12,359 bases of DNA from Nitrosarchaeum sp. (GTDB taxonomy: Archaea > Thermoproteota > Nitrososphaeria > Nitrososphaerales > Nitrosopumilaceae). Position 1 is the stretch's first letter, and every line of letters starts with the position of its first letter. Location: positions 1 through 12,359 of the forward strand of contig CBDCXP010000002.1 in assembly GCA_965223865.1 (NCBI GenBank), given 5' to 3'. Under the pieces are notes generated by a model. The model worked only from the letters and a program-made list of their open reading frames with translations. It was not told the DNA's origin and did no database searches. Positions 1 through 8,903 of this stretch are shown here, piece after piece. The position numbers and the translations under genes are program-made.

Positions 1-1326
1 TCTAGCTGATTGTATGTGTCCTGTAAAATATCAGATATCATCATCCATTTTTCATGCCAGTCCGATGATGAGTTCTTGATTTCAGAGATTTTTTCTTGTG
101 CAGATTCTGGAAGTAATGGAACTATTACATCAAAGAATCTTTGGCGTTCCATAGATTCAAGATATCCATGTGAAAAGTCCTGACGATAAGTAATGTAAAG
201 TGAATCAGTTGAGACATGGATTGTTCCTGATCCTCCCATCAGAAATGTTTCAGAGTTTATTGTTTCTCCAAAAAGATCAATTGCTGTAACAGTGTTAAAG
301 TTGTAATGTCTATCAAAGTTATCAAAATAATAAACGTCAGGGGCCAATTCAAATTCAGAGTCTTCCATGATTAATGGGATTACTGGATGTCTGTAATCTA
401 TTCCAGATGTGGTAACAAGATAAACGTGGTTACCAATCATTCTTGCATTTTGAAATGAGCCATCAATAGAGTAATCCTTTATTATTTTTGGGGCCTCCTT
501 GTCAGAGATGTCCAGTATTGCAACATGTGTCGTTTGTCTATGGATTGATCTTGGAGCAAAGTCATATTCAGGAATTATTTGGTCTTGGCTTGTTCCGTAA
601 TAAAATATCACAAGCCTGTCATCATTTAGAAACATGTTCTGCAGGTTTTGCTGGTCGATGTCAAGGGCAGATTTGAAGATAATCTTGGCATTTTCTGCAG
701 GATATGCCTCTATTATCTTGAGATTCTGCTCAGAGACGATATAGACGTATTTTCCATCAGTTTTTAGAAAATCAGACTCATCTACTCCTTTGATTTGTAC
801 ATTGGTTGTAGAATAATCCGAACCAGATGAATCTGAAATGACTGATTCTGAATCTTGGTCTCTAAAAAAAGATGGTTCAGGCTCTGGTTCTGGCTCAGCC
901 ATAGGAACTGAAAATACGGTCCTATCAAGGGACATAGAACCAGAGTTTGCACGCATTTCCATATCTTCTTCTAACACAAATCCCCCATCGGCCTGAAACC
1001 CATCTATCATCATAGTGTCCATTCATGTTGCTTGTGGCCAATGCAGCTATGAATCTCTGGACTTCCTCTTGAGATGAGAATTTCTTAAGCTCCTGAGTTC
1101 CTTCAAAAAATTCTGAGAGATTGCCATCAACGTAAACCAGTCTCTCTGGAGCGTAACGAGATTGTTGGATGCGAATCTGCTGTTCCAAGTCTGCTACATA
1201 AAAAACAAACAGAGAGGAAACTATAACAACTGCAACTATAACTGAAATCAATATTTTATAATCCAAATTTTTCACTCCAGAGTTCTCCTGAAACCGAATT
1301 GACTGAATTTTAATCACGAATGGCAT
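1..1326 (-). CDS. Membrane-anchored/secreted beta-propeller domain protein (Beta_propel/COG4880-like); one apparent frameshift between ~928 and 1022; 3' end runs off the left edge of the window
   Basis: ORF 925-1326 supplies an N-terminal hydrophobic anchor (ILISVIVAVVIVSSLFVFYV) and ELKKFSSQEE. My translation of a second minus frame, open from 1022 to base 1, gives ...SGSMSLDRTVFSVPMAEPEPEPEPS...DYSTTNVQIKGVDESDFLKTDGKYVYIV...YSIDGSFQNARMIGNHVYLVT. The YSxTNVQxxGVDExDxxKTDG motif is characteristic of this family. The start may be ATG 1326 or TTG 1266 (GGAG just upstream). Confidence 0.85.
873..896 (-). repeat. Coding hexamer repeat (EPEPEPEP) in the beta-propeller protein linker
   Basis: Minus strand reads GAG CCA GAA CCA GAG CCT GAA CCA. 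Confidence 0.8.
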
Positions 1327-1350
1327 TGAATAACAAAACTATCAAAAAAA

Positions 1351-1387
1351 TGCATAAAACTTTTGATTAAATTTGGATTTTACCTAA
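1351..1387 (-). promoter_or_regulatory. Candidate TATA (TTTATGCA on minus) plus conserved upstream element, copy 1
   Basis: Plus strand tgcataaaacttttgattaaatttggattttacctaa. It is 26/33 identical to 6031-6063, and 1362-1387 is 25/26 identical to 3010-3035. It starts 24 nt upstream of ATG 1326. Confidence 0.7.
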
Positions 1388-1440
1388 ATTGATCACAAAG
1401 GTTATTTCCTCAAAATACATTTGCAAATAGAAAACACATT

Positions 1441-2383
1441 ATGAAAAAAAAGAATAACGGAAATCAAGAAGATAAAAACAATGTAGAAACTGAAAAAAAT
1501 CAAGAAAATGAAATTAGAGTTTTATCAGCTGATGATGAAAAAATTAAAGTTGTTGGCGAAGTACTAGCCAACGAATCAAGCAGAGCCATACTAAGACTGT
1601 TATCAAACATTGATGAGATGACAATTAACCAAATAGCTCAAGAGATGGATTTGTCAATTCCGTTGGTATCCCATCATCTAAAAAAGATGCAAGAGACAGG
1701 AGTTGTAAAAGTAAGCAGAGTTGGCAAGTCTGTAAAGGGACAAAAAATGAATTACTATTCCATAACCAATCAATCCTTTCTTATTACTCCCCCAGAAAAA
1801 CAAACACATTCTCTTTTTCACTCATTGAGAAAAATTTGCAAAATTTGCAGCTATTGGTATGGCAGGTCTTGTTTCATGGGCAATGCTAGAGCCAAAATCC
1901 AAAAACCAATTAGTACCTATTGAAGATGCCAGACAAACAAATTTTTCAGAACTTGATGAATCAGAAGAAAAGTGGTCATCAGCTTCTGAACTAGTAGATG
2001 AGAGTGAATCTGAAGTTGTAGAACCAACTGCTGCTGTACCTCCTGCACCAGAGTCAGTACCAGAGCCAGCACCTGAACCGGAGCCTGAACCTGAACCGGA
2101 GAGAGAATTAGAGCAAGAGTCTGAACCTTCTCACTCAGATGAGGGATTTGACTTGAAAATTGACTCAGATGGATTAGATACAGGCACAATATCCCTTGAT
2201 AGGACTGTCTATCCTGAACCATTTGCTAGCACCGGTGCAGAATCAGCAGATCCCATGATATTTTCCATTATCATTCCCATTGCAGTCATTGCAGGAGGCA
2301 TAATCATTGAAAGACTACTAACCCATTGGCACGGGAAGAGAAAAATGAAAAATTTCAGCTTTATCAAAAAAGATCCTAGATGA
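1441..2383 (+). CDS. Membrane-anchored ArsR-like winged-HTH transcriptional regulator (HTH - TM - acidic Pro/Glu loop - TM), ~313 aa; apparent +1 frameshift in the A5 run at 1830-1834
   Basis: N-terminal wHTH (LANESSRAIL...EMTINQIAQEMDLSIPLVSHHLKKMQETGVV...MNYY). Removing one A joins ORFs 1441-1923 and 1859-2383 as LRKFAKFAAIGMAGLVSWAML (TM1). TM2 is MIFSIIIPIAVIAGGIII, followed by a basic tail. The architecture matches the intact paralog at 6104-6904. Confidence 0.85.
2036..2102 (+). repeat. Low-complexity Pro/Glu coding repeat (VPPAPESVPEPAPEPEPEPEPE)
   Basis: Tandem degenerate CCN-GAR hexamers in the regulator loop. Confidence 0.75.
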
Positions 2384-2758
2384 GAGAATAACTTTTCTAA
2401 AATTATATATGTTTACAGAATTTAGTTTCTTCAAACTAGTACAAATAGAATTCTCAAATACAAAAATCAGATCAACTGACATTATGACAAATTCAGTAAA
2501 CTCCTAAATTATTTTAATGTAAGAAGTTAATTGTCTATATTTTAGAGATAATTTTTTTCAGAGTTAAAAAGAACGGTGGTCCTCCAATAAAGGCATGTCA
2601 TTAAATTTCTAGTACAGATTAATTTAGCAACACCATAATTTGTTTCTGATTATCCAATTATTATTTTCATTATTTTTATATTTTAAAATCTCAGTATCAA
2701 ATTTTGATAAATTCTTCTAAAATAATTACGAGATGATTTTTACAATTTTATTATTTGC

Positions 2759-2783
2759 ATTAGAACTAAAATAGAGTTCTAAT
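2759..2783. terminator. 9-bp inverted repeat overlapping the stop codon of 2779-2979; possible terminator or 3' stability hairpin
   Basis: attagaact-aaaatag-agttctaat. The stem is AT-rich, so it is weak. Confidence 0.3.
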
Positions 2784-2979
2784 TAATTCTTGAAACACCA
2801 ACTGAGAGTCTTTTGTTGCTTCTAGGTTTTAGTCTTGTCGCATTGTTGCAACAAGGACAACGAGGATATTTTTCTTTGAAATAATAATCACATATTTTAC
2901 AGTAGCATCCACCAGTCTGATAAATCTGACTTTTTGCAGCATTTTGTTTTTTTATGCATTGATTGTTACACATTAACAT
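2779..2979 (-). CDS. Small Cys-rich zinc-ribbon-like protein
   Basis: C-x3-C, CKIC and CPCC followed by RLKPR, a pattern I recall from small thaumarchaeal proteins. A TATA-like TTATAA lies about 22 nt upstream on the minus strand. Confidence 0.75.
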   Translation of the reverse strand: MLMCNNQCIKKQNAAKSQIYQTGGCYCKICDYYFKEKYPRCPCCNNATRLKPRSNKRLSVGVSRIN

Positions 2980-3000: not shown

Positions 3001-3035
3001 GTTATAACGTTTGATTAAATTTTGATTTTACCTAA
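3001..3035 (-). promoter_or_regulatory. Candidate TATA plus conserved upstream element, copy 2
   Basis: gttataacgtttgattaaattttgattttacctaa. Contains a perfect TTTGATT direct repeat at 3010 and 3021 (11-nt period). Confidence 0.7.
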
Positions 3036-3110: not shown

Positions 3111-4280
3111 TCACTTGGATAACGGCATCTTTGATTTTGACTCTGATGGTACAAAGTAAGTTTCTCCTCTGTTGGTCTTGTAACCTCCAGCAGAATCACT
3201 GGTCTCGTAGGCCCTAAGATGGACAGGATCTATGCCTGTCTGACCCTGGTTTTGGTCCTGTTTGAGCTTTCTGTTACTCACTACAAACATTACAACTCCT
3301 CCAATTGCTGCGATTCCGGCCATCCCATACATTACAGTTGCAGGAAACTCGTCAGTGTCAGGCCTGTAAGATACCGGAGAGTGGAGGTCCGTTTCAAAGG
3401 TATCAATACCGTCAATTGAGGAATAATCCACATAACCCTCTATTGCAATTGTTGCATCGTCTTGAGATTCTATTGCAGTTATCGAATATTTTCTGTCAAG
3501 CTCAAAGTCTTGTGACCATTCACGGTCTTTACAAAAATCACCAACCTCAAGGTTGCATTCACCCATTGAATAGTGTGTAACTACGTATTTGCCAGAAAAA
3601 TTATACTCCTTGGATCCAGCAATAATTGCAGTATTGTCAAAAAGAGAATGCCACTTGTGCAGTGGAAGTTCTGAAATCTTACTTGCATCAATTAGGGGCA
3701 ACCCCAATATTTCATAATCTGTTGCTTCAAGTTTGGTCATAACTTGTGGCATGAGAATATCCAGTGCATCTTTTGGATTGTTAATATCAAACTGACCATA
3801 CACTGTATCCAACTTTACGGGTTGATCAAGTGTTATTCCTCTCCAGTTTGCATCAATGATGCTCTTATCAGAATGTCTTTGCAAAATATGATTAGTGATT
3901 GTAGGGATCAGCTCAACTTTGTACTCTATTGCTGCAGAATCCTCATTTCCATTTAACATAGCACGGTAGATGATCTTTGCATCAGTAACAATTGCACTAC
4001 TAGATGAATCTCTAAGATTCTGATTAAGTTGACTTATCAGACTATCCATGCCAGGCGTTTGAGAGTCTGCAGTAATTGAGATTGACTGAGATTTGCCTCT
4101 TAGAAGATCTGCAATCTCTCCACCCTCAGGATATTCAATGTAGACTACTCTCAGAAATTTAAAGGAAGGCTCTGTAATGTCTTCGTCATGAATTATTGCT
4201 GCATCTAGCTGTGCTGCATATGCAGATGAAGGTACAAGAAATAACGTTACCAGAATTAGGAACAAAACTAGAAGATTCAT
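3111..4280 (-). CDS. Exported single-pass membrane protein of unknown function (signal peptide, ~310 aa ectodomain, C-terminal TM, cytoplasmic tail)
   Basis: The start is better placed at ATG 4280 (MNLLVLFLILVTLFLVPSSAYAA, an SPI-like signal) than at 4349, which would overlap the divergent gene. TM is VMYGMAGIAAIGGVVMFVV and the tail is GQTGIDP...SAGGYKTNRGE. Confidence 0.85.
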   Translation of the reverse strand: MNLLVLFLILVTLFLVPSSAYAAQLDAAIIHDEDITEPSFKFLRVVYIEYPEGGEIADLLRGKSQSISITADSQTPGMDSLISQLNQNLRDSSSSAIVTDAKIIYRAMLNGNEDSAAIEYKVELIPTITNHILQRHSDKSIIDANWRGITLDQPVKLDTVYGQFDINNPKDALDILMPQVMTKLEATDYEILGLPLIDASKISELPLHKWHSLFDNTAIIAGSKEYNFSGKYVVTHYSMGECNLEVGDFCKDREWSQDFELDRKYSITAIESQDDATIAIEGYVDYSSIDGIDTFETDLHSPVSYRPDTDEFPATVMYGMAGIAAIGGVVMFVVSNRKLKQDQNQGQTGIDPVHLRAYETSDSAGGYKTNRGETYFVPSESKSKMPLSK

Positions 4281-4379
4281 GCTAATATATCCATAGAAAT
4301 AGATATATCCATTATTATCAAATACAAGAATTATGGCGGATATATCCAATGCATCAAAGACATCGATGGATATATTCCG
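4281..4379. promoter_or_regulatory. Four imperfect copies of the palindrome ATGGATATATCCAT; putative operator array
   Basis: 4281-4294 GCTAATATATCCAT (10/14), 4299-4312 ATAGATATATCCAT (13/14), 4336-4349 GCGGATATATCCAA (11/14), 4366-4379 ATGGATATATTCCG (11/14). Confidence 0.7.
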
Positions 4380-4956
4380 CAGTATTATGGATTATGGTCC
4401 GCTCACCCTTTATGCTGCAAATAATAAAACAAAAATTCCCATAGGCACGATTCACAGACATTTTAAGCTGCTTGAAAAAGCAAGAAAGATTCGTGTTTAC
4501 AAGTCAAATAAGAAAGGCCGGAAAAAAATAGAATACGGTCCCACAATTTATGGAATTCTTAGTTTCTATAGACAAGACAGAATGATTGCAGAAAAGATTG
4601 AAAATTATTTTCTGCTGTGGGCAGAAAACAGGGAATTCCAGTACGAGCTCCACAAAGAAGGATTTGAACGATTTGATGCTAAAAAGAGCCAAAAAGCAAA
4701 AAGAATTTTCCATAAATACATGGACTATTTTAGTGCAATAGAGGATCAGATAGACATAATAAAAAATGGCAACGACATCATAACTCGAGACATCTTAATT
4801 ATGATTAGCTCTGGTCTGCTCTCAACAAATCCACACTACCAGAAAATGTGGAGGGATTTGTATCAAAACTTGCCAGGTATGAGAGAAAGCCTGGATAATT
4901 ATATGAAGAGCATGATCAAGTCACATAGGGAATTAAAAACTCTTAATTCCAAATAA
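4333..4956 (+). CDS. Soluble winged-HTH DNA-binding protein, putative transcriptional regulator
   Basis: GPLTLYAANNKTKIPIGTIHRHFKLLEK helix-turn-helix and GRKKIEYGPTIYG wing. It is divergent from 3111-4280. Alternative start at ATG 4366. Confidence 0.8.
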   Translation: MADISNASKTSMDIFRSIMDYGPLTLYAANNKTKIPIGTIHRHFKLLEKARKIRVYKSNKKGRKKIEYGPTIYGILSFYRQDRMIAEKIENYFLLWAENREFQYELHKEGFERFDAKKSQKAKRIFHKYMDYFSAIEDQIDIIKNGNDIITRDILIMISSGLLSTNPHYQKMWRDLYQNLPGMRESLDNYMKSMIKSHRELKTLNSK

Positions 4957-5647
4957 TAATTTTATTTGAAAATAAAACAAAGAACATAATTATTGTAACA
5001 GTTACTGGAATCAAATAGACAAATCGGTTTATGTTTTTTTTATTTGCATAATTTTGATATGCAAGGTAGACAATAGTTCCGGCAGATATTGCAGTTATGA
5101 TATTCATGATATCAAATGGGTCATCATTTATGATACTGCATTCTCTTAATCCAAAACTGCATAAAGAAATCAAGATTAAAAAATTCCAAACAGAGTGAAA
5201 TGCAATTGCAAACCATCCCTTGCCACTACTCCATGTTCTCAGGCTAAAAAATATGTGAGGAATAGAGAACAAAAATCCTCCATATGCTAGACTTTCAAGT
5301 GAAACAATTCCCGAATTAAACAGATGAGAGACAGACCAAATTATTCCAGTTCCAAGCAAAACAAAAGAGTTTCCCGTGAGATAAAACGGAATGCCAAAAA
5401 ACACCGACTCTTCTAGCAATCCAGAGCTTAGTGCTAATGAAATTGATACTGGTATCTGGGGAGTTTCATAGTCAGGTATCATATTTGTGACCAATTGTGA
5501 GCCTAATTGCATCAATGCCAACCCCAAAGTATGGTAAAACAGGCCCATCTTGAAGAGATAGACAAGGTTTGTCTTTTGGAATGATTTTAGCCAGTTTTTT
5601 GGATTAATGTCATGTATCTCGCTTCTCAATGTTGTTCTGATTTGCAA
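4943..5647 (-). CDS. CPBP (Abi/type II CAAX protease) family intramembrane glutamic endopeptidase
   Basis: Multi-TM protein with family motifs EESVFFG (EExxFxG; the usual Arg is replaced by Phe), WSVSH (FxxxH-like) and AFHSVWN (HxxxN). The start is uncertain (TTG 5683, 5647 or 5629). Confidence 0.75.
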   Translation of the reverse strand: MQIRTTLRSEIHDINPKNWLKSFQKTNLVYLFKMGLFYHTLGLALMQLGSQLVTNMIPDYETPQIPVSISLALSSGLLEESVFFGIPFYLTGNSFVLLGTGIIWSVSHLFNSGIVSLESLAYGGFLFSIPHIFFSLRTWSSGKGWFAIAFHSVWNFLILISLCSFGLRECSIINDDPFDIMNIITAISAGTIVYLAYQNYANKKNINRFVYLIPVTVTIIMFFVLFSNKIIIWN

Positions 5648-5674
5648 GGTTTGCTTATTTAGTATGTCAAAGAT

Positions 5675-5691
5675 AAAAAACAAAAAGAGAA
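5675..5691 (-). terminator. Archaeal oligo-U terminator after the small membrane protein gene
   Basis: Minus strand TTCTCTTTTTGTTTTTT begins 8 nt after the TGA at 5699-5701. Confidence 0.55.
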
Positions 5692-5698
5692 GGGGCAG

Positions 5699-6010
5699 TC
5701 ATCCTCTGCCCATCTCAGCATATTTGCCTTGTCTGCCTTTAACAAAGAATGCTGTAGCAATTCCGCCAAAGACACCTGTGGATAGTACTAGTGCACCTAT
5801 GACTCCATCGGCTGCAAGCAATGGAGTTCCAGAGCCTGCGCCAGGTTGTTCATTTGCAATTGCTACTCTGTTTTTTGCCAATTGCAAATAGGCATCAAGT
5901 CCAGTCTGACCATCAATTGGAACGTATTGTGCAAATGCGCTGCTAACAGAAGGCAATATCAAAATGCTTAGAATTGCTCCCGTTGCAATTATTGTCTTTT
6001 TTGTACTCAT
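5699..6010 (-). CDS. Small exported, C-terminally anchored membrane protein (signal peptide, ~38 aa ectopeptide ending in PGAGSGTP, TM, basic tail)
   Basis: MSTKKTIIATGAILSILILPSVSSAFA|Q is an AFA signal peptidase-like site. TM is GVIGALVLSTGVFGGIATAFFV and the tail is KGRQGKYAEMGRG. Confidence 0.85.
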   Translation of the reverse strand: MSTKKTIIATGAILSILILPSVSSAFAQYVPIDGQTGLDAYLQLAKNRVAIANEQPGAGSGTPLLAADGVIGALVLSTGVFGGIATAFFVKGRQGKYAEMGRG

Positions 6011-6030
6011 TGAAATTGTTAAGTAAATTT

Positions 6031-6066
6031 TGCATAAAGGCTTTGATGAAATTATGACTTTACTAA
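6031..6066 (-). promoter_or_regulatory. Candidate TATA (TTTATGCA on minus) plus conserved upstream element, copy 3
   Basis: tgcataaaggctttgatgaaattatgactttactaa. It starts 20 nt upstream of ATG 6010 and is 26/33 identical to 1351-1383. Confidence 0.65.
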
Positions 6067-6103
6067 TCTTTACATAGTTTGTTGCTGTAATATTATTACA
6101 GTT

Positions 6104-6904
6104 ATGATTGACAAAAATTCAGAGATAGCTAATAGCATAGATATTTTTTCAACAGATGATGAAAAGCTAAAGATATTAGCTGAGATAATTTCAAACAAAC
6201 CAAGTATAGAAATTCTAAATGTTTTGTTTAACAATGAGATGACTGCAAATGAATTAGCACAAAAAATTAACATCTCATTGCAGCTAGTAAAGTATCATTT
6301 AGAAAAGATGCAAAGAATTGATCTTGTTCATGTTTCCAGAGTAGGAAAAAATTCCAAATCACGAGACATGAATTATTACAAGACATCAAAACTTGCAATA
6401 CTGATAACGCCATCAAAAATAACTGAAAAAGCAAAACAAAGTAAATTACTAAAACGTTCCTTTAGATCAATTTACCGATTCTTTGGAATTGGGATAACAT
6501 CTCTAGTGGCAATACTTTCTGTAATGTCAGTTACAGCTGAGAGCAGCCTGTTTACTCCCATTAAAAATTGGTATTCAGGCTTTGAAATTCCAATATCAAT
6601 ACCCGGAACTGGCCTTCCAAGTACAATTGATGAGACATATTATTTAGCAAAGACCAAAGTTGACTCTGTAGTGGCAAATCCAGGAGCAGGATCTGGAACC
6701 CCATATTTTGATCCATACACAAATGTTCTAGGGTACACCGTCAATGACTTTGTAATAACAATGTTAGTTATTGGGGCAATTGGAGTTGTCATGTCATTAC
6801 CGTTTTTTGTAATGTCTTATAGACACTCCAAGAAACATCCAGAATTTACCAATCTTGCCATATCAAAAAATAAGATAGTAAATTTCAAAATAGATAACAA
6901 ATGA
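6104..6904 (+). CDS. Membrane-anchored ArsR-like winged-HTH transcriptional regulator (HTH - TM - loop - TM); paralog of 1441-2383
   Basis: Shares DDEK, EMTxNxxAQ, LVxxHLxKMQ, VSRVGK, MNYY and LITP with 1441. TM1 is FFGIGITSLVAILSVMSV and TM2 is FVITMLVIGAIGVVMSLPFFVM. Confidence 0.9.
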   Translation: MIDKNSEIANSIDIFSTDDEKLKILAEIISNKPSIEILNVLFNNEMTANELAQKINISLQLVKYHLEKMQRIDLVHVSRVGKNSKSRDMNYYKTSKLAILITPSKITEKAKQSKLLKRSFRSIYRFFGIGITSLVAILSVMSVTAESSLFTPIKNWYSGFEIPISIPGTGLPSTIDETYYLAKTKVDSVVANPGAGSGTPYFDPYTNVLGYTVNDFVITMLVIGAIGVVMSLPFFVMSYRHSKKHPEFTNLAISKNKIVNFKIDNK

Positions 6905-6974: not shown

Positions 6975-7613
6975 CTATCTATTTACAAATCTACCATAGC
7001 CTACGACTCCGTTCTCATTTACTCCCCATGTAGGTGGAACTATCCACAAAAATCCCTCTGAATCAGACTCCAAATCCAGTTTGGGAAGTATATTTGATGG
7101 AGATGCTTGGTTTGCTGCAGGACCTCCAGTGGCTGCTCCTGTTAGCGGGTCGTAAGTGCTTGCATGACACGGACACTCCCCCCTTTGACGTCCTTGTTCA
7201 GGCCAATACTTCCACAGGCACCACAAGTGCAGACACACCATACTATATGCCCTAAAGGCAGATACATCAGTCGCATCTCCTCCAAGTTCATCTGGAAGGC
7301 GTATCAGATTCCATTTCCTAAAGGCTTCCTGATCAAGTGCAAGATCACCCGTACTAGGGTATGTGATTACCTCAGCATGGTTTTTTGGAAATGTTGAAAT
7401 GTTTGCCTGTGTTCCATCTGGCAAAATCGCACGTGCTCTCTCTAAAATGTCATTGGCGATATTTGGCATGTAATTTCCAAATGGAATAAATGGAGCAAAT
7501 GCTAGACCTATTCCTGCTGCGCCAATCAGCTTCAAAAAATCACGTCTAGAGAGGTCATCGTTTCTCTCTTGTTTTTGATAGTCGATAGAACCGCTTTTAC
7601 GCTGTTCCGACAT
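6975..7613 (-). CDS. Tat-exported Rieske [2Fe-2S] protein
   Basis: Twin-arginine signal SRRDFLK plus a hydrophobic stretch. Rieske boxes are CLHLWC and CPCHASTY. Confidence 0.92.
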   Translation of the reverse strand: MSEQRKSGSIDYQKQERNDDLSRRDFLKLIGAAGIGLAFAPFIPFGNYMPNIANDILERARAILPDGTQANISTFPKNHAEVITYPSTGDLALDQEAFRKWNLIRLPDELGGDATDVSAFRAYSMVCLHLWCLWKYWPEQGRQRGECPCHASTYDPLTGAATGGPAANQASPSNILPKLDLESDSEGFLWIVPPTWGVNENGVVGYGRFVNR

Positions 7614-7659
7614 GACTTACAATATGCATTTCATACCTATTAACTATGCGAAACAATTG

Positions 7660-7681
7660 TTTTTTTTTTTTTTTTTTTTTT
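7660..7681. repeat. T22 homopolymer in the intergenic region upstream of the Rieske gene
   Basis: 22 consecutive T on the plus strand. Confidence 0.9.
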
Positions 7682-7722
7682 GAATTGATGTTATAATTGG
7701 AAAAATTCATCAGCTCATAGTT

Positions 7723-8208
7723 TTAAGATTGTGGGTTTATCTTGCATTCTACTTTTAGGGATTTGACAGTTGTATAGTATGTAAGTACTAGCACCCCAAT
7801 TGCAGCTATTCTTATTGGAATCTCAAAATTTGTCAAAAACGCTGATGCCGTAGCTCCTACCGTTCCAAAAGTAGAGATTACTGCAAAGCCAATAGGACCA
7901 CAACTACATGCCCCTGCAGCAGCACCAATTATTGAGCCAAATACTCCTCCACCCATTTTCTTTTTTGAGCTTTTTAGAATATTGATTCGATAAACATTCA
8001 TTGGAATTACCAATCCAGACAATCCAGACAAAATAACAATTAATGAAAATCCAATTTCTGTTCCCTTTGGAATATGACTAACCACATATGGTTCAAGAAA
8101 AATATACTCAGAGATTATCAGCAACCCAATAAGCATGGGTAAAAAAATTGCAGCTGCCAATGCAATGTATCGATAATTGGAAAATACGAGTTTGATTGTG
8201 TTTGCCAT
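7723..8208 (-). CDS. Four-TM membrane protein with a membrane-embedded CxC motif; function unknown
   Basis: Four hydrophobic segments and AAAGACSCGP. It starts 1 nt after the stop of the DsbA-like gene, suggesting an operon. Confidence 0.8.
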   Translation of the reverse strand: MANTIKLVFSNYRYIALAAAIFLPMLIGLLIISEYIFLEPYVVSHIPKGTEIGFSLIVILSGLSGLVIPMNVYRINILKSSKKKMGGGVFGSIIGAAAGACSCGPIGFAVISTFGTVGATASAFLTNFEIPIRIAAIGVLVLTYYTTVKSLKVECKINPQS

Positions 8209-8209
8209 T

Positions 8210-8872
8210 TTATATCATAGAATCCAGTACTTGTTTAAAAACCGAATAAGGTTGAGCTCCTCCTATTTGTTGTTGATCATCAGGGCCTACAATGAAGAAC
8301 CCAGGAGTGCCTCGTACTCCATGTTTTTTTGCCTCATCAATATTATGCTGAACTCTTTTAGAATATTTTCCAGAATCAAGACAGATTTCAAACAACTCCA
8401 TATCAAGTCCTAAACTAAATGCAAATGCCTTTAGGCGTTCAGAATTTGCCCAGCCATTATCAATTTTTGATTCTTGGGAATTATACAGTATATCATGATA
8501 CTCCCAGTATTTTCCTTGGTCTTCTGCGCAGTATGATGCCTGAGCAGCTCTTGGTGAATCCCTACCAAGAAAAGCAAGATCAACAAAAACAAAGTTTGCC
8601 TTACCAGTATCTACATAATTCTCAAATATAGCAGGTTTTGTGTTGTGAAACCAATTGTAACATTGATGACATTGGTAATCACCAAATTCTACAATAGTAA
8701 TTGGTGCAGAAGGATCTCCTAGAATCGAAGAACCCATTGCAGTTGAAATGGTACCATGTGTTCGGCTCATATCTAGATTAACAGTTTCAGATTGGGGAGA
8801 TGCAGAATAAGATGCGGCGATTCCAATGATTACTGCAGCAACCACTGCACCAATTACAAGTCCTTTTTTCAT
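8210..8872 (-). CDS. Membrane-anchored DsbA-family thiol-disulfide oxidoreductase (Thioredoxin_4-like)
   Basis: GDPSAPITIVEFGDYQCHQC active site, GVRGTPGF cis-Pro loop and an N-terminal TM. The start is ATG 8872 or GTG 8884. Confidence 0.92.
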   Translation of the reverse strand: MKKGLVIGAVVAAVIIGIAASYSASPQSETVNLDMSRTHGTISTAMGSSILGDPSAPITIVEFGDYQCHQCYNWFHNTKPAIFENYVDTGKANFVFVDLAFLGRDSPRAAQASYCAEDQGKYWEYHDILYNSQESKIDNGWANSERLKAFAFSLGLDMELFEICLDSGKYSKRVQHNIDEAKKHGVRGTPGFFIVGPDDQQQIGGAQPYSVFKQVLDSMI

Positions 8873-8903
8873 GTCAAAAAACACTGAAATTCGGTTAAAA
8901 AAC

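What the first reader, a model, noticed from the sequence alone, without database searches (positions are those of the whole stretch)
5822..6703. Pair 2: ungapped 26-aa match between the small membrane protein and the loop of its divergent regulator, conserved at protein level
Seen in sequence: LDAYLQLAKNRVAIANEQPGAGSGTP (5899-5822, minus) aligns with IDETYYLAKTKVDSVVANPGAGSGTP (6626-6703, plus) at 13/26 identity with no gaps. The PGAGSGTP codons differ at four positions, all synonymous third bases (CCT GGC GCA GGC TCT GGA ACT CCA versus CCA GGA GCA GGA TCT GGA ACC CCA). This points to selection on the peptide rather than a recent DNA copy. In both proteins the segment lies between an N-terminal hydrophobic helix and a C-terminal TM with a basic tail. 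Inference: the regulator's C-terminal half is a fused homolog of the whole target protein.
Basis: seen in the sequence. Interest (0 to 1): 0.85.

Follow-up and report, generated by a model that had tools for sequence, protein, structure and literature searches.

The report
Membrane regulator carrying an AmoZ-like module
A membrane-anchored gene regulator of an ammonia-oxidising archaeon carries, on the outside of the cell membrane, a copy of a small subunit (AmoZ) of the ammonia-oxidising enzyme, and sits next to a spare copy of that subunit's gene, which suggests a so far undescribed way of coupling gene control to this key enzyme of the nitrogen cycle.

Summary
The motif NPxxGSGTP is kept in 120/120 listed homologs of the small protein and 120/120 listed regulator orthologs. 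Profile comparison gives 95% probability of homology over helix, motif and TM. The small protein belongs to the AmoZ family, an accessory subunit of archaeal ammonia monooxygenase. Its closest relatives in the same genome lie beside amoY, 3.4 kb from amoA. The family was found in 135/136 same-order genomes and 0/64 genomes of other families of the class. The window gene is a lineage-specific AmoZ paralog. The regulator is a membrane-tethered ArsR-type protein (HTH-TM-AmoZ-like module-TM). Regulator and paralog lie side by side in 12 of 81 family genomes (8 of 27 genera) and share a conserved operator-like element between two TATA-like boxes. In several genera the module resembles canonical AmoZ more than the neighbour. 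The mechanism, subunit mimicry that senses AMO/AmoY, is inferred, not shown.

The parts
5699..6010 (-). Gene for a 103-aa AmoZ paralog ('AmoZ2'). It has a signal-peptide-like N-terminus (residues 1-27, ...SSAFA/QY), an ecto-helix, the motif NEQPGAGSGTP, a TM helix (about residues 64-88) and the basic tail KGRQGKYAEMGRG.
   Evidence: ORF. No Pfam or NCBIfam hit. It is 46-53% identical to the two canonical AmoZ copies of the same genome. 175 homologs, listed identities 64-98%. Topology. Invariant columns.
5822..5899 (-). The 26-residue segment of the finding in the small protein (L38-P63): ecto-helix plus PGAGSGTP (codons at 5822-5845).
5747..5821 (-). TM helix of the small protein (about residues 64-88) with the family's FGGIAxAFF core.
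   Evidence: Hydropathy. Invariant F81 G82 G83 A85 F88 F89.
6011..6103 (.). 93-bp divergent control region between the two start codons.
6032..6039 (-). TATA-like box (GCATAAAG on +, CTTTATGC on -) 22 nt upstream of the small gene's start codon. The assignment is inferred.
   Evidence: Conserved in the alignment of 10 upstream regions. The promoter role is an inference from its position.
6042..6066 (+). Operator-like imperfect inverted repeat TTTGATGAAA-N5/6-(C)TTTACTAA between the two TATA-like boxes. It is the candidate binding site of the regulator.
   Evidence: Conserved in all 8 divergent and, in a variant form, 2 tandem pairs from 10 genomes. It is a perfect 10-bp palindrome in G075. The stricter pattern occurs once in the 2.0-Mb genome. 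The relaxed pattern occurs 3 times in the window (expected 0.01) and 3 times in the rest of the genome.
6069..6076 (+). TATA-like box TTTACATA 28 nt upstream of the regulator's ATG. The assignment is inferred.
   Evidence: Nearly invariant.
6085..6101 (.). Perfect palindrome CTGTAATA-T-TATTACAG just before the regulator's ATG. It is not conserved outside the closest relatives.
6104..6904 (+). Gene for a 266-aa membrane-tethered ArsR-type regulator: HTH, TM1, outside loop with AmoZ-like module, TM2, basic tail.
   Evidence: Pfam HTH_24 26.4 bits (cut-off 21.9), HTH_5 22.9 (22), HTH_20 26.8 (27). 204 homologs. AF2 model. Topology.
6158..6385 (+). Winged helix-turn-helix DNA-binding domain (residues 19-94).
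   Evidence: Pfam match. AF2 elements H19-30, H32-43, H48-55, H59-71, E75-82, E88-94, with block pLDDT 81-92 over residues 21-90.
6470..6535 (+). TM1 (about residues 123-144), the end of a long helix 104-149.
6626..6703 (+). The 26-residue segment of the finding in the regulator (I175-P200): ecto-helix (AF2 H175-191) plus NPGAGSGTP.
6725..6805 (+). TM2 (about residues 208-234), followed by the basic tail YRHSKKH...
   Evidence: H213-243; block pLDDT 85 and 82 for residues 221-240.

Best explanation
The locus is a self-contained two-gene module of ammonia-oxidising archaea of the Nitrosopumilus family. One gene (5699-6010, -) encodes a spare, lineage-specific paralog of AmoZ. AmoZ is the single-TM accessory subunit that, together with AmoY, clamps neighbouring protomers of the archaeal ammonia monooxygenase. 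The other gene (6104-6904, +) encodes a membrane-tethered one-component regulator. Its ArsR-type winged helix faces the cytoplasm. TM1 takes the chain out, where an AmoZ-like module follows (amphipathic ecto-helix and NPxxGSGTP loop), and TM2 brings it back in.

Proposed working (inferred). The regulator binds as a dimer to the conserved imperfect inverted repeat that lies between the two TATA-like boxes, and so controls both its own gene and the amoZ paralog. Its AmoZ-like module acts as a decoy subunit. It engages the partner that AmoZ normally engages (AmoY and/or the periplasmic face of AMO), so transcription of the spare AmoZ is coupled to the occupancy or assembly state of the enzyme.

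Shown: the homology of the module, its AmoZ family membership, its topology by prediction, protein-level selection, the conserved gene pairing, and the conserved operator-like element. Inferred: DNA binding at that element, that the small gene is the target, and any contact with AmoY or AMO.
For: Homology.

AmoZ identity of the family:
- In G000 the closest relative (111 aa, C1:688659-688994) is followed by a single-copy 89-aa one-TM gene. Then come a 193-aa one-TM gene, a 104-aa gene without a TM, amoB, amoC, amoX and amoA.
- This is the order described for N. maritimus, where amoY is Nmar_1506 and amoZ is Nmar_1507, with amoZ directly upstream of amoY and the cluster 1-2 genes from amoABCX (passages of PMC10030591).
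- The cryo-EM preprint describes AmoG = AmoZ as a single-TM subunit, Nmar_1504 as soluble, and AmoE as single-TM plus a C-terminal domain.
- The core copy lies 3.1-3.6 kb from amoA in 4 of 5 further genomes checked. amoY is adjacent to it in 20 loci.
- The family was found in 114/114, 5/5, 14/14 and 2/2 genomes of four families of the order, in 0/1 of a fifth, and in 0/64 genomes of other families of the class.
- Members from two other families of the order carry a C-x10-C helix pair, as published for N. viennensis AmoZ.

Pairing:
- An AmoZ paralog lies within 1.5 kb of the regulator in 11 of 30 regulator-centred loci. 9 of those 11 regulators carry an HMM-detectable AmoZ-like module and the other 2 carry degenerate ones.
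- 0 of the 19 regulators without such a neighbour carry the module.
- From the coordinates, 12 of 81 family genomes and 8 of 27 genera have the pair. It is divergent in most and tandem in genus g22.

Mimicry of canonical AmoZ: the regulator's 32-residue ecto segment is 25/32 identical to the genome's own AmoZ in G067 and G047, 20/32 in G075 and 16/32 in G001. The figures against the neighbour are 11, 11, 15 and 10. Only 15/25 and 12/25 of the conserved residues use identical codons, so this is not a fresh gene conversion.

Operator.

Topology and model.
Against: - No experiment or prediction here shows that the module touches AmoY, AMO or the paralog.
- In the window's own regulator the module is diverged. 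It is 13/32 identical to both AmoZ and the neighbour. TM2 has lost the family's FGGIAAAFF core, and the conserved cytoplasmic tail GKYAxMGRG is missing. According to the preprint, the C-termini of AmoF/AmoG make cytoplasmic contacts in AMO.
- The AF2 model is of low confidence outside the HTH and TM2 (mean pLDDT 64, pTM 0.35).
- The operator-like element could be part of a shared basal promoter rather than a specific binding site.
- Expression was not shown. One RNA-library contig of a relative covers 6209-6411 only, and DNA carry-over cannot be excluded.
- The pair is absent from most genomes of the family (69 of 81 sampled), so it is accessory to AMO function.
Confidence: 0.5

Rival explanations
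1. Product-feedback pairing. The AmoZ-like module of the regulator pairs in the membrane with the neighbouring paralog itself, through homotypic helix/TM contacts. The regulator then measures how much of its own target has been made. AMO is not involved in the sensing.
For: Adjacency of regulator and paralog is conserved in 12 of 81 genomes, and module presence tracks the neighbour (9/9 versus 0/19). In G006 both the neighbour and the regulator have lost the canonical NPxxGSGTP motif (sequences), which hints at pair-specific co-variation. The other regulator of this subfamily in the window also shares a segment of its outside loop with its own divergent neighbour (14/32, E = 1e-3). So does one in G077 (13/17; unpublished genome). 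This suggests that 'loop resembles neighbour' is a rule of the subfamily.
Against: In all 8 genomes compared the module is as close or closer to canonical AmoZ than to the neighbour. It matches non-cognate paralogs as well as or better than the cognate one. In the published AMO description AmoZ pairs with AmoY, not with itself (passages). In G026 the regulator's motif is degenerate while the neighbour's is intact.
Confidence: 0.22
2. Generic anchor or dimerisation cassette. The helix, NPxxGSGTP, TM and basic-tail unit is a reusable membrane-anchoring or sorting cassette. It was recruited by the regulator only to hold it, or dimerise it, in the membrane. The conserved motif would serve insertion, processing or lipid/S-layer contact, not sensing.
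For: The C-terminal half of the unit (motif, TM, RxRSGKY tail) also ends two large repeat proteins of 529 and 720 aa, P0335 and P0348. That is what a C-terminal anchor or sorting signal would look like. The tripartite layout (motif, TM, basic cluster) recalls archaeosortase-type signals (recalled). A CPBP/Rce1-like intramembrane protease gene lies directly downstream of the small gene (Pfam E = 5e-5).
Against: No NCBIfam sorting-signal model matches the small protein. The CPBP gene is next to the pair only in G000 and its near-identical relative G030, not in G054, G047, G067 or G022. The regulator's tail continues 32 residues beyond TM2. The ecto-helix, which a sorting signal does not need, is the best-conserved part shared with AmoZ. 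The strict link between module and AmoZ-paralog neighbour is not expected for a generic anchor.
Confidence: 0.15
3. Precursor reading. TM1 is a former signal peptide with a retained signal-peptidase site (consensus V-S/T-A|E-S-S). The regulator is cut after TM1, which releases a free AmoZ-like protein and leaves HTH-TM1 behind.
For: BLASTP aligns the small protein's signal peptide with TM1. The residues AESS after TM1 are nearly invariant among close orthologs.
Against: The site is absent from the more distant members of the same regulator group (g22 type, P0322, P0349). Cleavage of a signal anchor behind a 120-residue cytoplasmic domain is unusual (general knowledge). No signal-peptide predictor was available here.
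Confidence: 0.05
4. Chance or low-complexity resemblance (a Gly/Ser/Pro-rich linker) without common descent.
For: The exact shared peptide is short (8 residues) and rich in G, S and P. Several large repeat proteins match the profile through GSGTP-like repeats (multi-stretch hits).
Against: 0/500 shuffles reach the observed match. The regulator is the only other hit in the genome. hhalign gives 95.4% over 55 columns, including the helix and TM. The motif is invariant in both families.
Confidence: 0.02

Closest known systems
AmoZ (called AmoG in the 2026 cryo-EM preprint), accessory subunit of archaeal ammonia monooxygenase (Nmar_1507, NVIE_004550)
   Same: The window's small protein is 46-53% identical to the genome's two canonical copies. 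It shares their whole layout: signal-peptide-like start ending AFAQY, ecto-helix, NPxxGSGTP, TM with FGGIAxAFF, and tail GKYAxMGRG. The regulator shares the helix, motif and TM.
   Different: The window gene is not in the amoZ-amoY-amoB-amoC-amoX-amoA cluster and has no amoY beside it. It lacks the short Gly-rich insert of canonical AmoZ. It occurs in a minority of genomes and is paired with a regulator. Whether it enters AMO is unknown. The searches turned up no report of AmoZ paralogs or AmoZ-like regulator domains (see Tried and rejected).
ArnR / ArnR1 of Sulfolobus acidocaldarius, membrane-bound one-component activators of the archaellum
   Same: An archaeal transcription factor with an N-terminal HTH and two TM helices that acts at the membrane (passages of PMC6396743).
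   Different: ArnR has a cytoplasmic HAMP-like domain plus a sensing domain, with both TMs at the extreme C-terminus. The window's regulator has no HAMP match, and its presumed sensor is the outside loop between the TMs, a homolog of an enzyme subunit. No sequence relationship was tested.
ToxR/CadC-type bacterial membrane-bound one-component regulators (recalled)
   Same: A cytoplasmic winged-helix DNA-binding domain tethered by a TM segment to an extracytoplasmic sensing part. DNA is bound at the membrane.
   Different: Those have an OmpR-type domain, a single TM and a folded periplasmic domain. Here there is an ArsR-type domain, two TMs and a roughly 60-residue loop that copies a subunit of a membrane enzyme. 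Recalled from general knowledge, not tested.
ArsR/SmtB family repressors, including SdpR, which the membrane protein SdpI sequesters at the membrane (recalled)
   Same: The HTH matches ArsR-type Pfam models at or near their cut-offs and, weakly, the NCBIfam ArsR/SmtB and SdpR models. SdpR shows that an ArsR-type repressor can be controlled by capture at the membrane.
   Different: NCBIfam scores are far below the cut-offs (29.9 versus 55; 26.6 versus 100). Metal sites were not examined. Here the membrane part is fused to the repressor, not a separate protein.
One-component regulators whose sensor domain derives from an enzyme or transporter component (for example MocR-type aminotransferase fusions; recalled)
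   Same: The principle is the same: a DNA-binding domain fused to a homolog of a working protein of the pathway it controls.
   Different: The fused part here is a tiny single-TM structural subunit of a membrane complex exposed outside the cell, not a ligand-binding enzyme fold.

Membership tests
AmoZ family (archaeal AMO accessory subunit) | Restricted to ammonia-oxidising archaea and present in essentially all of them | tested here: met
   Profile A1 matches 135/136 genomes of the same order (114/114, 5/5, 14/14, 2/2, 0/1 by family) and 0/64 genomes in other families of the class. One of the counted genomes (G077) is unpublished.
AmoZ family (archaeal AMO accessory subunit) | Gene directly upstream of amoY and 1-2 genes from amoABCX in Nitrosopumilaceae (PMC10030591) | tested here: not met
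   Met by the canonical copy C1:688659-688994. Also met in 4 of 5 other genomes. Not met by the window gene, which lies on another contig beside a regulator. The window gene is therefore a paralog, not the amo-cluster ortholog.
AmoZ family (archaeal AMO accessory subunit) | About 100-125 aa, a soluble helical part outside, a flexible loop and one TM (published description) | tested here: met
   Members from other families of the order carry the two-Cys helix pair described for N. viennensis (passages).
AmoZ family (archaeal AMO accessory subunit) | Physically part of the AMO complex | not testable with these tools
   No PDB chain matches. The structure named in the preprint (9XJ2) was not among the chains searched.
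ArsR/SmtB-type winged-helix regulators | Match to the family's HTH models above the curated cut-off | tested here: inconclusive
   Pfam HTH_24 26.4 versus 21.9 and HTH_5 22.9 versus 22 pass; HTH_20 26.8 versus 27 just fails. NCBIfam HTH_metalloreg 29.9 versus 55 fails. The AF2 model shows a winged helix with block pLDDT 81-92.
ArsR/SmtB-type winged-helix regulators | Metal- or ligand-sensing sites of the metalloregulators | not tested
   No analysis of metal ligands was made.
ArnR-like membrane-bound one-component regulators | N-terminal HTH plus C-terminal TM helices | tested here: met
ArnR-like membrane-bound one-component regulators | HAMP-like and cytoplasmic sensing domain between the HTH and the TMs | tested here: not met
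   Pfam shows no HAMP or other domain. Only about 25 residues separate the HTH from TM1.
PDGLE domain (Pfam PF13190), the name UniRef gives one homolog (P0071) | Match to the Pfam model | tested here: not met
   None of the 21 members of A1 matches PDGLE even at E up to 10. The name appears only.
C-terminal sorting signals of archaeosortase type (PGF-CTERM, PEFG-CTERM; recalled) | Match to an NCBIfam sorting-domain model; motif, TM and basic cluster at the very C-terminus | tested here: inconclusive
   No NCBIfam hit for the small protein. The tripartite layout is present, and the cassette ends two large proteins. However, the tail is specifically conserved (GKYAxMGRG), and the regulator continues 32 residues beyond TM2.

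The most novel reading that the evidence does not exclude
A subfamily of membrane-tethered ArsR regulators in Nitrosopumilaceae senses by subunit mimicry. Each carries, outside the membrane, a decoy copy of a segment of a secreted or membrane protein. In this pair the decoy is AmoZ. It competes with real AmoZ for AmoY or the inter-protomer site of ammonia monooxygenase. The cell thereby reads the assembly state or AmoZ:AmoY stoichiometry of its central energy enzyme and adjusts an alternative AmoZ isoform. If so, this would be, within what my searches found, a transcription factor not yet described as wired directly into archaeal AMO.
Probability: 0.3. Interest if true: 0.85.

Novelty: new variant of a known kind. 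Interest (0 to 1): 0.7.

Why it matters
Ammonia monooxygenase is the key enzyme of ammonia-oxidising archaea, and through them of nitrification. Its accessory subunits were named in 2023, and a structure was described only in a 2026 preprint. The papers I read gave no regulator of AMO in archaea. My searches found no paper holding both amoZ and ArsR. Three papers hold Nitrosopumilus, ArsR, transmembrane and transcription factor together, and none concerns this by its title.

This locus offers three testable things:
1. Unrecognised paralogs of AmoZ. They could give AMO alternative compositions, as has been proposed for the extra AmoC copies (PMC10030591).
2. A candidate regulator that is evolutionarily tied to an AMO subunit, with a defined 25-bp candidate operator.
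3. A possible general principle, in which a membrane-bound regulator's outside loop copies a piece of the protein it controls. It is seen twice in this window and once more in a relative.

The soluble HTH domain and the operator can be tested in vitro even though these organisms lack genetic tools.

Tried and rejected
PDGLE label: UniRef calls one homolog 'PDGLE domain-containing'. No member of A1 matches that Pfam model at E up to 10, so the label is rejected.

Solved structures: the profile of A1 found no PDB chain at E up to 1. The AMO structure named in the preprint was not among the chains searched.

Complex prediction: AmoY (alignment A4) was folded with regulator residues 118-266 (alignment A3). 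The verdict was 'no answer' (score 0.00, mark 0.32; the partner's own fold was uncertain; the controls were not folded). This is no evidence either way. No positive control (AmoZ with AmoY) could be run because the cap is one job.

Sequencing runs:
- Two runs of unknown kind hold the whole stretch at 100% and may be the source of this DNA.
- One marine-sediment metatranscriptome has a single 203-nt contig on 6209-6411 with 5 differences. That is a relative's HTH region in an RNA library, and transcription is not shown.
- One polyA run of another organism laid no read.
- Nothing about expression, starts or ends can be concluded.

CPBP/Rce1-like protease (4943-5683) as processing enzyme of the motif: it lies beside the pair only in G000 and the near-identical G030, not in G054, G047, G067 or G022 within the 1.5-kb flanks. 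It is not a conserved part of the module.

Palindrome 6085-6101 as operator: not conserved beyond the closest relatives.

Recent gene conversion between amoZ and the regulator: rejected, because only 15/25 and 12/25 conserved residues share codons in the two most similar cases.

HTH fusions outside the family: in 12 loci of 5 genomes from two other families of the order, no AmoZ-like open frame exceeded 157 aa and no regulator of this subfamily lay within 1.5 kb. This means not found in those searched.

Literature:
- amoZ with ArsR: 0 papers.
- amoZ with paralog: 2 listings of one work, not read.
- Nitrosopumilus with ArsR, transmembrane and transcription factor: 3 papers, none on this by title.
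- What I read: passages and section 9 of PMC10030591; passages of PMC13058606, of preprint 10.64898/2026.08.31.748207 and of PMC6396743.
- Supplements are closed. The supplementary datasets of PMC10030591 and the extended-data alignments of the preprint may list AmoZ copies, and I could not see them.

Tool closures and slips:
- In the scripts I cut the small protein at 5699-6007 instead of 5702-6010. It therefore lacked Met1 and carried the stop. Results stand, but the hhalign residue numbers are one too low. They are corrected in this report to 38-92.
- One search failed on the same slip (KeyError) and was corrected.
- One search returned no answer. I repeated the computation with faster code.
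- The regex selected ORFs by the motif, so invariance there is partly by construction.
- No tree was built. The order of duplication and fusion events is therefore not claimed.
Full report
**1. The observation**

The window is a whole 12,359-bp contig (C3) of a 2.01-Mb, 4-contig genome with 34-35% G+C. Its protein hits carry Nitrosopumilus and Nitrosarchaeum names.

- The 103-aa ORF 5699-6010 (-) and the 266-aa ORF 6104-6904 (+) are divergent, with 93 bp between their start codons.
- None of 500 shuffles of the regulator gives 13/26 (maximum 12, once) or an exact 8-mer (maximum 6).
- BLASTP of the two proteins gives E = 2e-5.
- An HMM made only from small-protein homologs finds four ORFs among the genome's 4675 six-frame ORFs up to E = 1. 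They are the small protein, two relatives on contig C1, and the regulator at E = 3.4e-5.
- hhalign of the two families gives 95.4% probability, E = 1.7e-8, over small 38-92 against regulator 175-238. This covers an amphipathic helix, the motif and the following TM helix (numbering corrected).

**2. Selection on the peptide**

- The pattern P..G.G.P with its flanks is present in all 120 listed homologs of the small protein (consensus NPxxGSGTP) and in all 120 listed orthologs of the regulator. Two of the latter have GPGTP.
- In alignment A1, P56, G59, S60, G61, T62 and P63 are invariant.
- Across 34 distinct small ORFs and 7 regulators from fetched genomes, these residues are written with 3-4 synonymous codons each (ORFs were selected by the motif).
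Orthologous regulators keep the motif.
- Hydropathy and charge place the segment outside in both proteins.
  - The small protein has a signal-peptide-like start, a 33-residue outside part, a TM at about 64-88 and a tail with 4 K/R.
  - The regulator has a cytoplasmic HTH, TM1 at about 123-144, an acidic loop 145-207, TM2 at about 208-234 and a tail with 7 K/R.
- The AF2 model agrees on the elements: winged helix 19-94 with block pLDDT 81-92, a long helix 104-149, helix 175-191 and helix 213-243. It is of low confidence overall (mean pLDDT 64.1, pTM 0.35).

**3. What the family is**

Neither Pfam nor NCBIfam knows the small protein, and no PDB chain matches. The genome holds two closer-to-consensus relatives (46-53% identity).

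Gene order on contig C1 (amoA by Pfam PF12942 at E = 1.2e-115):
- the relative at C1:688659-688994 (111 aa)
- an 89-aa one-TM gene, 114 bp further on
- a 193-aa one-TM gene on the other strand
- a 104-aa gene without a TM
- amoB, amoC, amoX and amoA

This matches the published accounts:
- For Nitrosopumilaceae, amoZ lies directly upstream of amoY, 1-2 genes from amoABCX, with amoY = Nmar_1506 and amoZ = Nmar_1507 (PMC10030591, passages and section 9).
- The 2026 cryo-EM preprint describes AmoG (= AmoZ) as a single-TM subunit, AmoF (= AmoY), a single-TM AmoE with a C-terminal domain, and a soluble Nmar_1504 product not in the complex.

Further support:
- The 89-aa gene is single-copy in G000. 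It sits beside the AmoZ-like gene in 20 fetched loci and is very conserved (mean column identity 89%).
- In 4 of 5 further complete genomes the AmoZ-like gene lies 3.1-3.6 kb from amoA. In the fifth it is 437 kb away but still beside amoY.
- The family is found in every one of 81 sampled genomes of the family, across 27 genera.
- With the profile it is found in 135 of 136 genomes of the order and in none of 64 genomes of other families of the class.
- Members from two other families of the order are 117-146 aa long. They carry a C-x10-C pair in an extra helix-turn-helix outside part. This fits the published N. viennensis AmoZ: 12.8 kDa, two helices, one disulfide, a flexible loop and a TM.

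I therefore take the family to be AmoZ, with about 95% confidence. The identification rests on synteny, distribution and published descriptions, not on a direct comparison with a named AmoZ sequence.

**4. The window's small protein is a paralog**

- It keeps the whole AmoZ layout, including the invariant cytoplasmic tail GKYAxMGRG. It forms a separate type.
- Hits of 62% identity or more occur only in G000, G030 (100% identical here), G054, G047, G067 and G022. All other hits, the canonical copies, are 55% or less.
- In the larger class-wide sample, 14 of the 115 genomes of the family, G000 included, have a hit of this type at E below 1e-50.
- Metagenomes hold many more: 175 clusters.

**5. 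The regulator and its relatives**

- The N-terminal 113 residues define a subfamily of ArsR-type regulators, each followed by a TM segment. It was found in 46 of 81 family genomes and 18 of 27 genera at E up to 1e-12.
- G000 has two such regulators, both in this window.
- I examined 30 regulator-centred loci with 1.5-kb flanks.
  - 11 have a separate AmoZ-like small ORF next door.
  - 9 of these 11 regulators carry an HMM-detectable AmoZ-like module.
  - The other two (G006, G026) have visibly degenerate ones.
  - None of the 19 regulators without such a neighbour has the module.
- From the coordinates the pair is present in 12 of 81 genomes and 8 of 27 genera.
  - It is divergent in G000, G030, G054, G022, G001, G006, G075, G080, G026 and G066.
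  - It is tandem, with the regulator upstream on the same strand, in G047, G067 and a second pair of G022.
  - Regulator identities to the window's protein run from 70% down to about 35%.
- A profile search of 1.84 billion representatives with the small-protein alignment alone found further fusions of this kind. P0322, P0339 and P0349 are full length, and P0329 and P0337 lack the N-terminus. Some have long acidic PEPEPE linkers.
- The link between module and neighbour is thus old and kept through rearrangement. These genomes are kin, so the counts are descriptive, not a statistical test.

**6. Whom the module resembles**

I compared 32 residues (helix plus motif) of the regulator module with the genome's own canonical AmoZ and with the adjacent paralog. 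Identities out of 32:

| Genome | vs canonical AmoZ | vs adjacent paralog |
|---|---|---|
| G067 | 25 | 11 |
| G047 | 25 | 11 |
| G075 | 20 | 15 |
| G001 | 16 | 10 |
| G022 | 14 | 11 |
| G054 | 13 | 12 |
| G000 | 13 | 13 |
| G080 | 7 | 5 (an indel spoils this ungapped count) |

- In G067 and G047 only 15/25 and 12/25 of the identical residues use the same codon. The likeness is therefore maintained at the protein level rather than freshly copied.
- The module also matches non-cognate paralogs as well as or better than its own neighbour.
The module is AmoZ-like, not neighbour-like.
- In the window's own regulator type the module is the most diverged. TM2 has lost the FGGIAAAFF core. The conserved tail is absent in all regulators.

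**7. Control region**

- All eight divergent pairs share an element of about 45 bp. It consists of GCATAAAG (window 6032-6039), then TTTGATGAAA-N5/6-TTTTACCAAA-like (6042-6066), then TTTACATA (6069-6076).
- The two tandem pairs have a variant of the element upstream of the regulator.
- In G075 the middle part is a perfect 10-bp inverted repeat.
- The outer boxes lie 22 and 28 nt from the two start codons. This suits archaeal TATA boxes of leaderless or short-leader genes (inference).
- A strict version of the middle element occurs once in the genome.
- A relaxed one (TTTGATNAA-N5-9-TTYAYYWA) occurs three times in the window against 0.01 expected, and only three more times in the other 2.0 Mb.
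- The other two window sites lie in front of the second regulator pair (1362-1386) and in front of a 66-aa Cys-rich ORF (3010-3034).
- I read the middle element as the operator of this regulator subfamily, bound by a dimer. This is inferred.

**8. How it most likely works**

According to the preprint, AmoF (AmoY) and AmoG (AmoZ) form a clamp-like heterodimer between adjacent protomers. Their N-termini bridge the periplasmic domains, and their C-termini bridge the cytoplasmic ones.

A regulator that displays an AmoZ-like helix, loop and TM in the same orientation, and that in some genera is kept 78% identical to the real AmoZ over 32 residues, is best explained as a decoy. It would meet AmoZ's partner, either AmoY or the periplasmic face of AMO. 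Engagement would change the regulator's ability to dimerise on, or hold, its operator. It would thereby set the level of the spare AmoZ and of itself.

My odds:
- About 0.35-0.4 for this mimicry reading, within an overall 0.5 for 'dedicated membrane-bound regulator of the adjacent amoZ paralog whose AmoZ-like module is its sensing part'.
- About 0.2 that the module pairs with the neighbouring paralog itself. This is supported by the joint loss of the motif in G006 and by the second pair in the window, whose regulator loop shares 14/32 residues with its own neighbour.
- About 0.15 that it is only an anchor or sorting cassette. This is supported by P0335 and P0348, where the motif-TM-tail unit ends large repeat proteins.
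- About 0.05 that the protein is cut after TM1.

The one complex prediction allowed gave no answer, and the read-laying gave no expression evidence.

**9. Comparison with what is known**

- The small protein is a new paralog of a known family (AmoZ).
- The regulator works like the membrane-bound one-component regulators. ArnR/ArnR1 are the archaeal examples; ToxR and CadC in bacteria are recalled. It is not a member of the ArnR family, because it has no HAMP or cytoplasmic sensor domain.
- Its HTH is ArsR-like at or just around the Pfam cut-offs and below the NCBIfam cut-offs.
- I found no paper that holds both amoZ and ArsR. The passages I read of the AMO papers do not mention AmoZ paralogs or regulators.
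- I rate it a new variant of a known kind. The new feature is the use of an enzyme-subunit homolog, exposed outside the cell, as the membrane part of a transcription factor.

**10. Caveats**

- All function is inferred from sequence.
- Signal-peptide cleavage and topology rest on hydropathy and charge only.
- AmoZ identity rests on synteny and descriptions.
- The genome counts include one unpublished genome (G077), and related genomes are not independent.

Noticed in passing
window 925-2383 (regulator 1441-1923 plus 1859-2383, +; neighbour 925-1326 plus 3-1022, -): This is a second member of the same membrane-tethered ArsR subfamily ('pair 1'). Its outside loop shares 14/32 residues (…SLDRTV[FY]…) and a PEPEPEPE run with the product of its own divergent neighbour (E = 1e-3 for the single comparison). 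The same operator-like element lies between them at 1362-1386. This suggests 'loop copies neighbour' may be a rule of the subfamily. A further case is L049 in the unpublished genome G077 (13/17 identical).
   Followed up: partly
window about 1829-1833: The pair-1 regulator is split into two overlapping ORFs (160 and 174 aa) by one extra A in an A-run, relative to G030. There it is one intact 304-aa ORF: HTH, TM, acidic linker, TM. This is either a pseudogene or an assembly error. That part of the window (1301-2500) is 92% identical to G030, whereas the regulator and small gene of pair 2 match G030 at 100% at protein level.
   Followed up: partly
window 3010-3034, upstream of ORF 2779-2979 (-): A third copy of the operator-like element (TTTGATTAAATTTTGATTTTACCTA) is nearly identical to the pair-1 site. 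It lies about 30 nt upstream of a 66-aa Cys-rich (zinc-ribbon-like) ORF and has no regulator gene on its other side. The ORF may be a further target of the pair-1 regulator.
   Followed up: no
G000 C1:353928-354257 (L003 1489-1818): A second copy of canonical amoZ has a mature part identical to the amo-cluster copy. It lies away from amoY, next to an Hsp20-like gene. G030, G054 and G003 also have two canonical-type copies.
   Followed up: no
P0335 (529 aa) and P0348 (720 aa), metagenomic proteins: These large repeat proteins (repeats of the …VQVLDLTDPHNIVPAG… kind) end in the C-terminal half of the AmoZ unit: GGSGTPYF, a TM and RARSGKYKASG. The AmoZ membrane part may serve as a modular anchor, possibly docking other surface proteins to AMO arrays.
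   Followed up: no
window 4943-5683 (-): A CPBP/Rce1-like intramembrane protease gene (Pfam E = 5e-5) lies 15 bp downstream of the amoZ paralog on the same strand. It neighbours the pair only in G000 and G030.
   Followed up: partly
window 4333-4956 (+) and 3111-4349 (-): A third divergent arrangement. A 207-aa protein with a weak HTH_20 match (E = 0.003) and no TM overlaps head to head with a 412-aa secreted or membrane protein of no known family. That protein has a TM segment (…GMAGIAAIGGVVMFVVSNRK…) about 60 residues before its C-terminus.
   Followed up: no
L074, L078, L082 (G223) and other loci of families f3 and f5: Genomes of other families of the order hold several AmoZ-like genes each (up to 4 in G223), all with the two-Cys helix pair. 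AmoZ multiplicity is therefore not confined to the window's family, but no HTH partner was seen there.
   Followed up: partly
window 6975-8884 (-): Downstream of the regulator lie a TAT-signal Rieske protein (212 aa), a 161-aa multi-TM protein with a Cys-x-Cys motif and no family, and a DsbA-like thioredoxin (E = 6e-30). This looks like a small redox or maturation cluster of the outer compartment. It is not conserved beside the pair in the other genomes examined.
   Followed up: no
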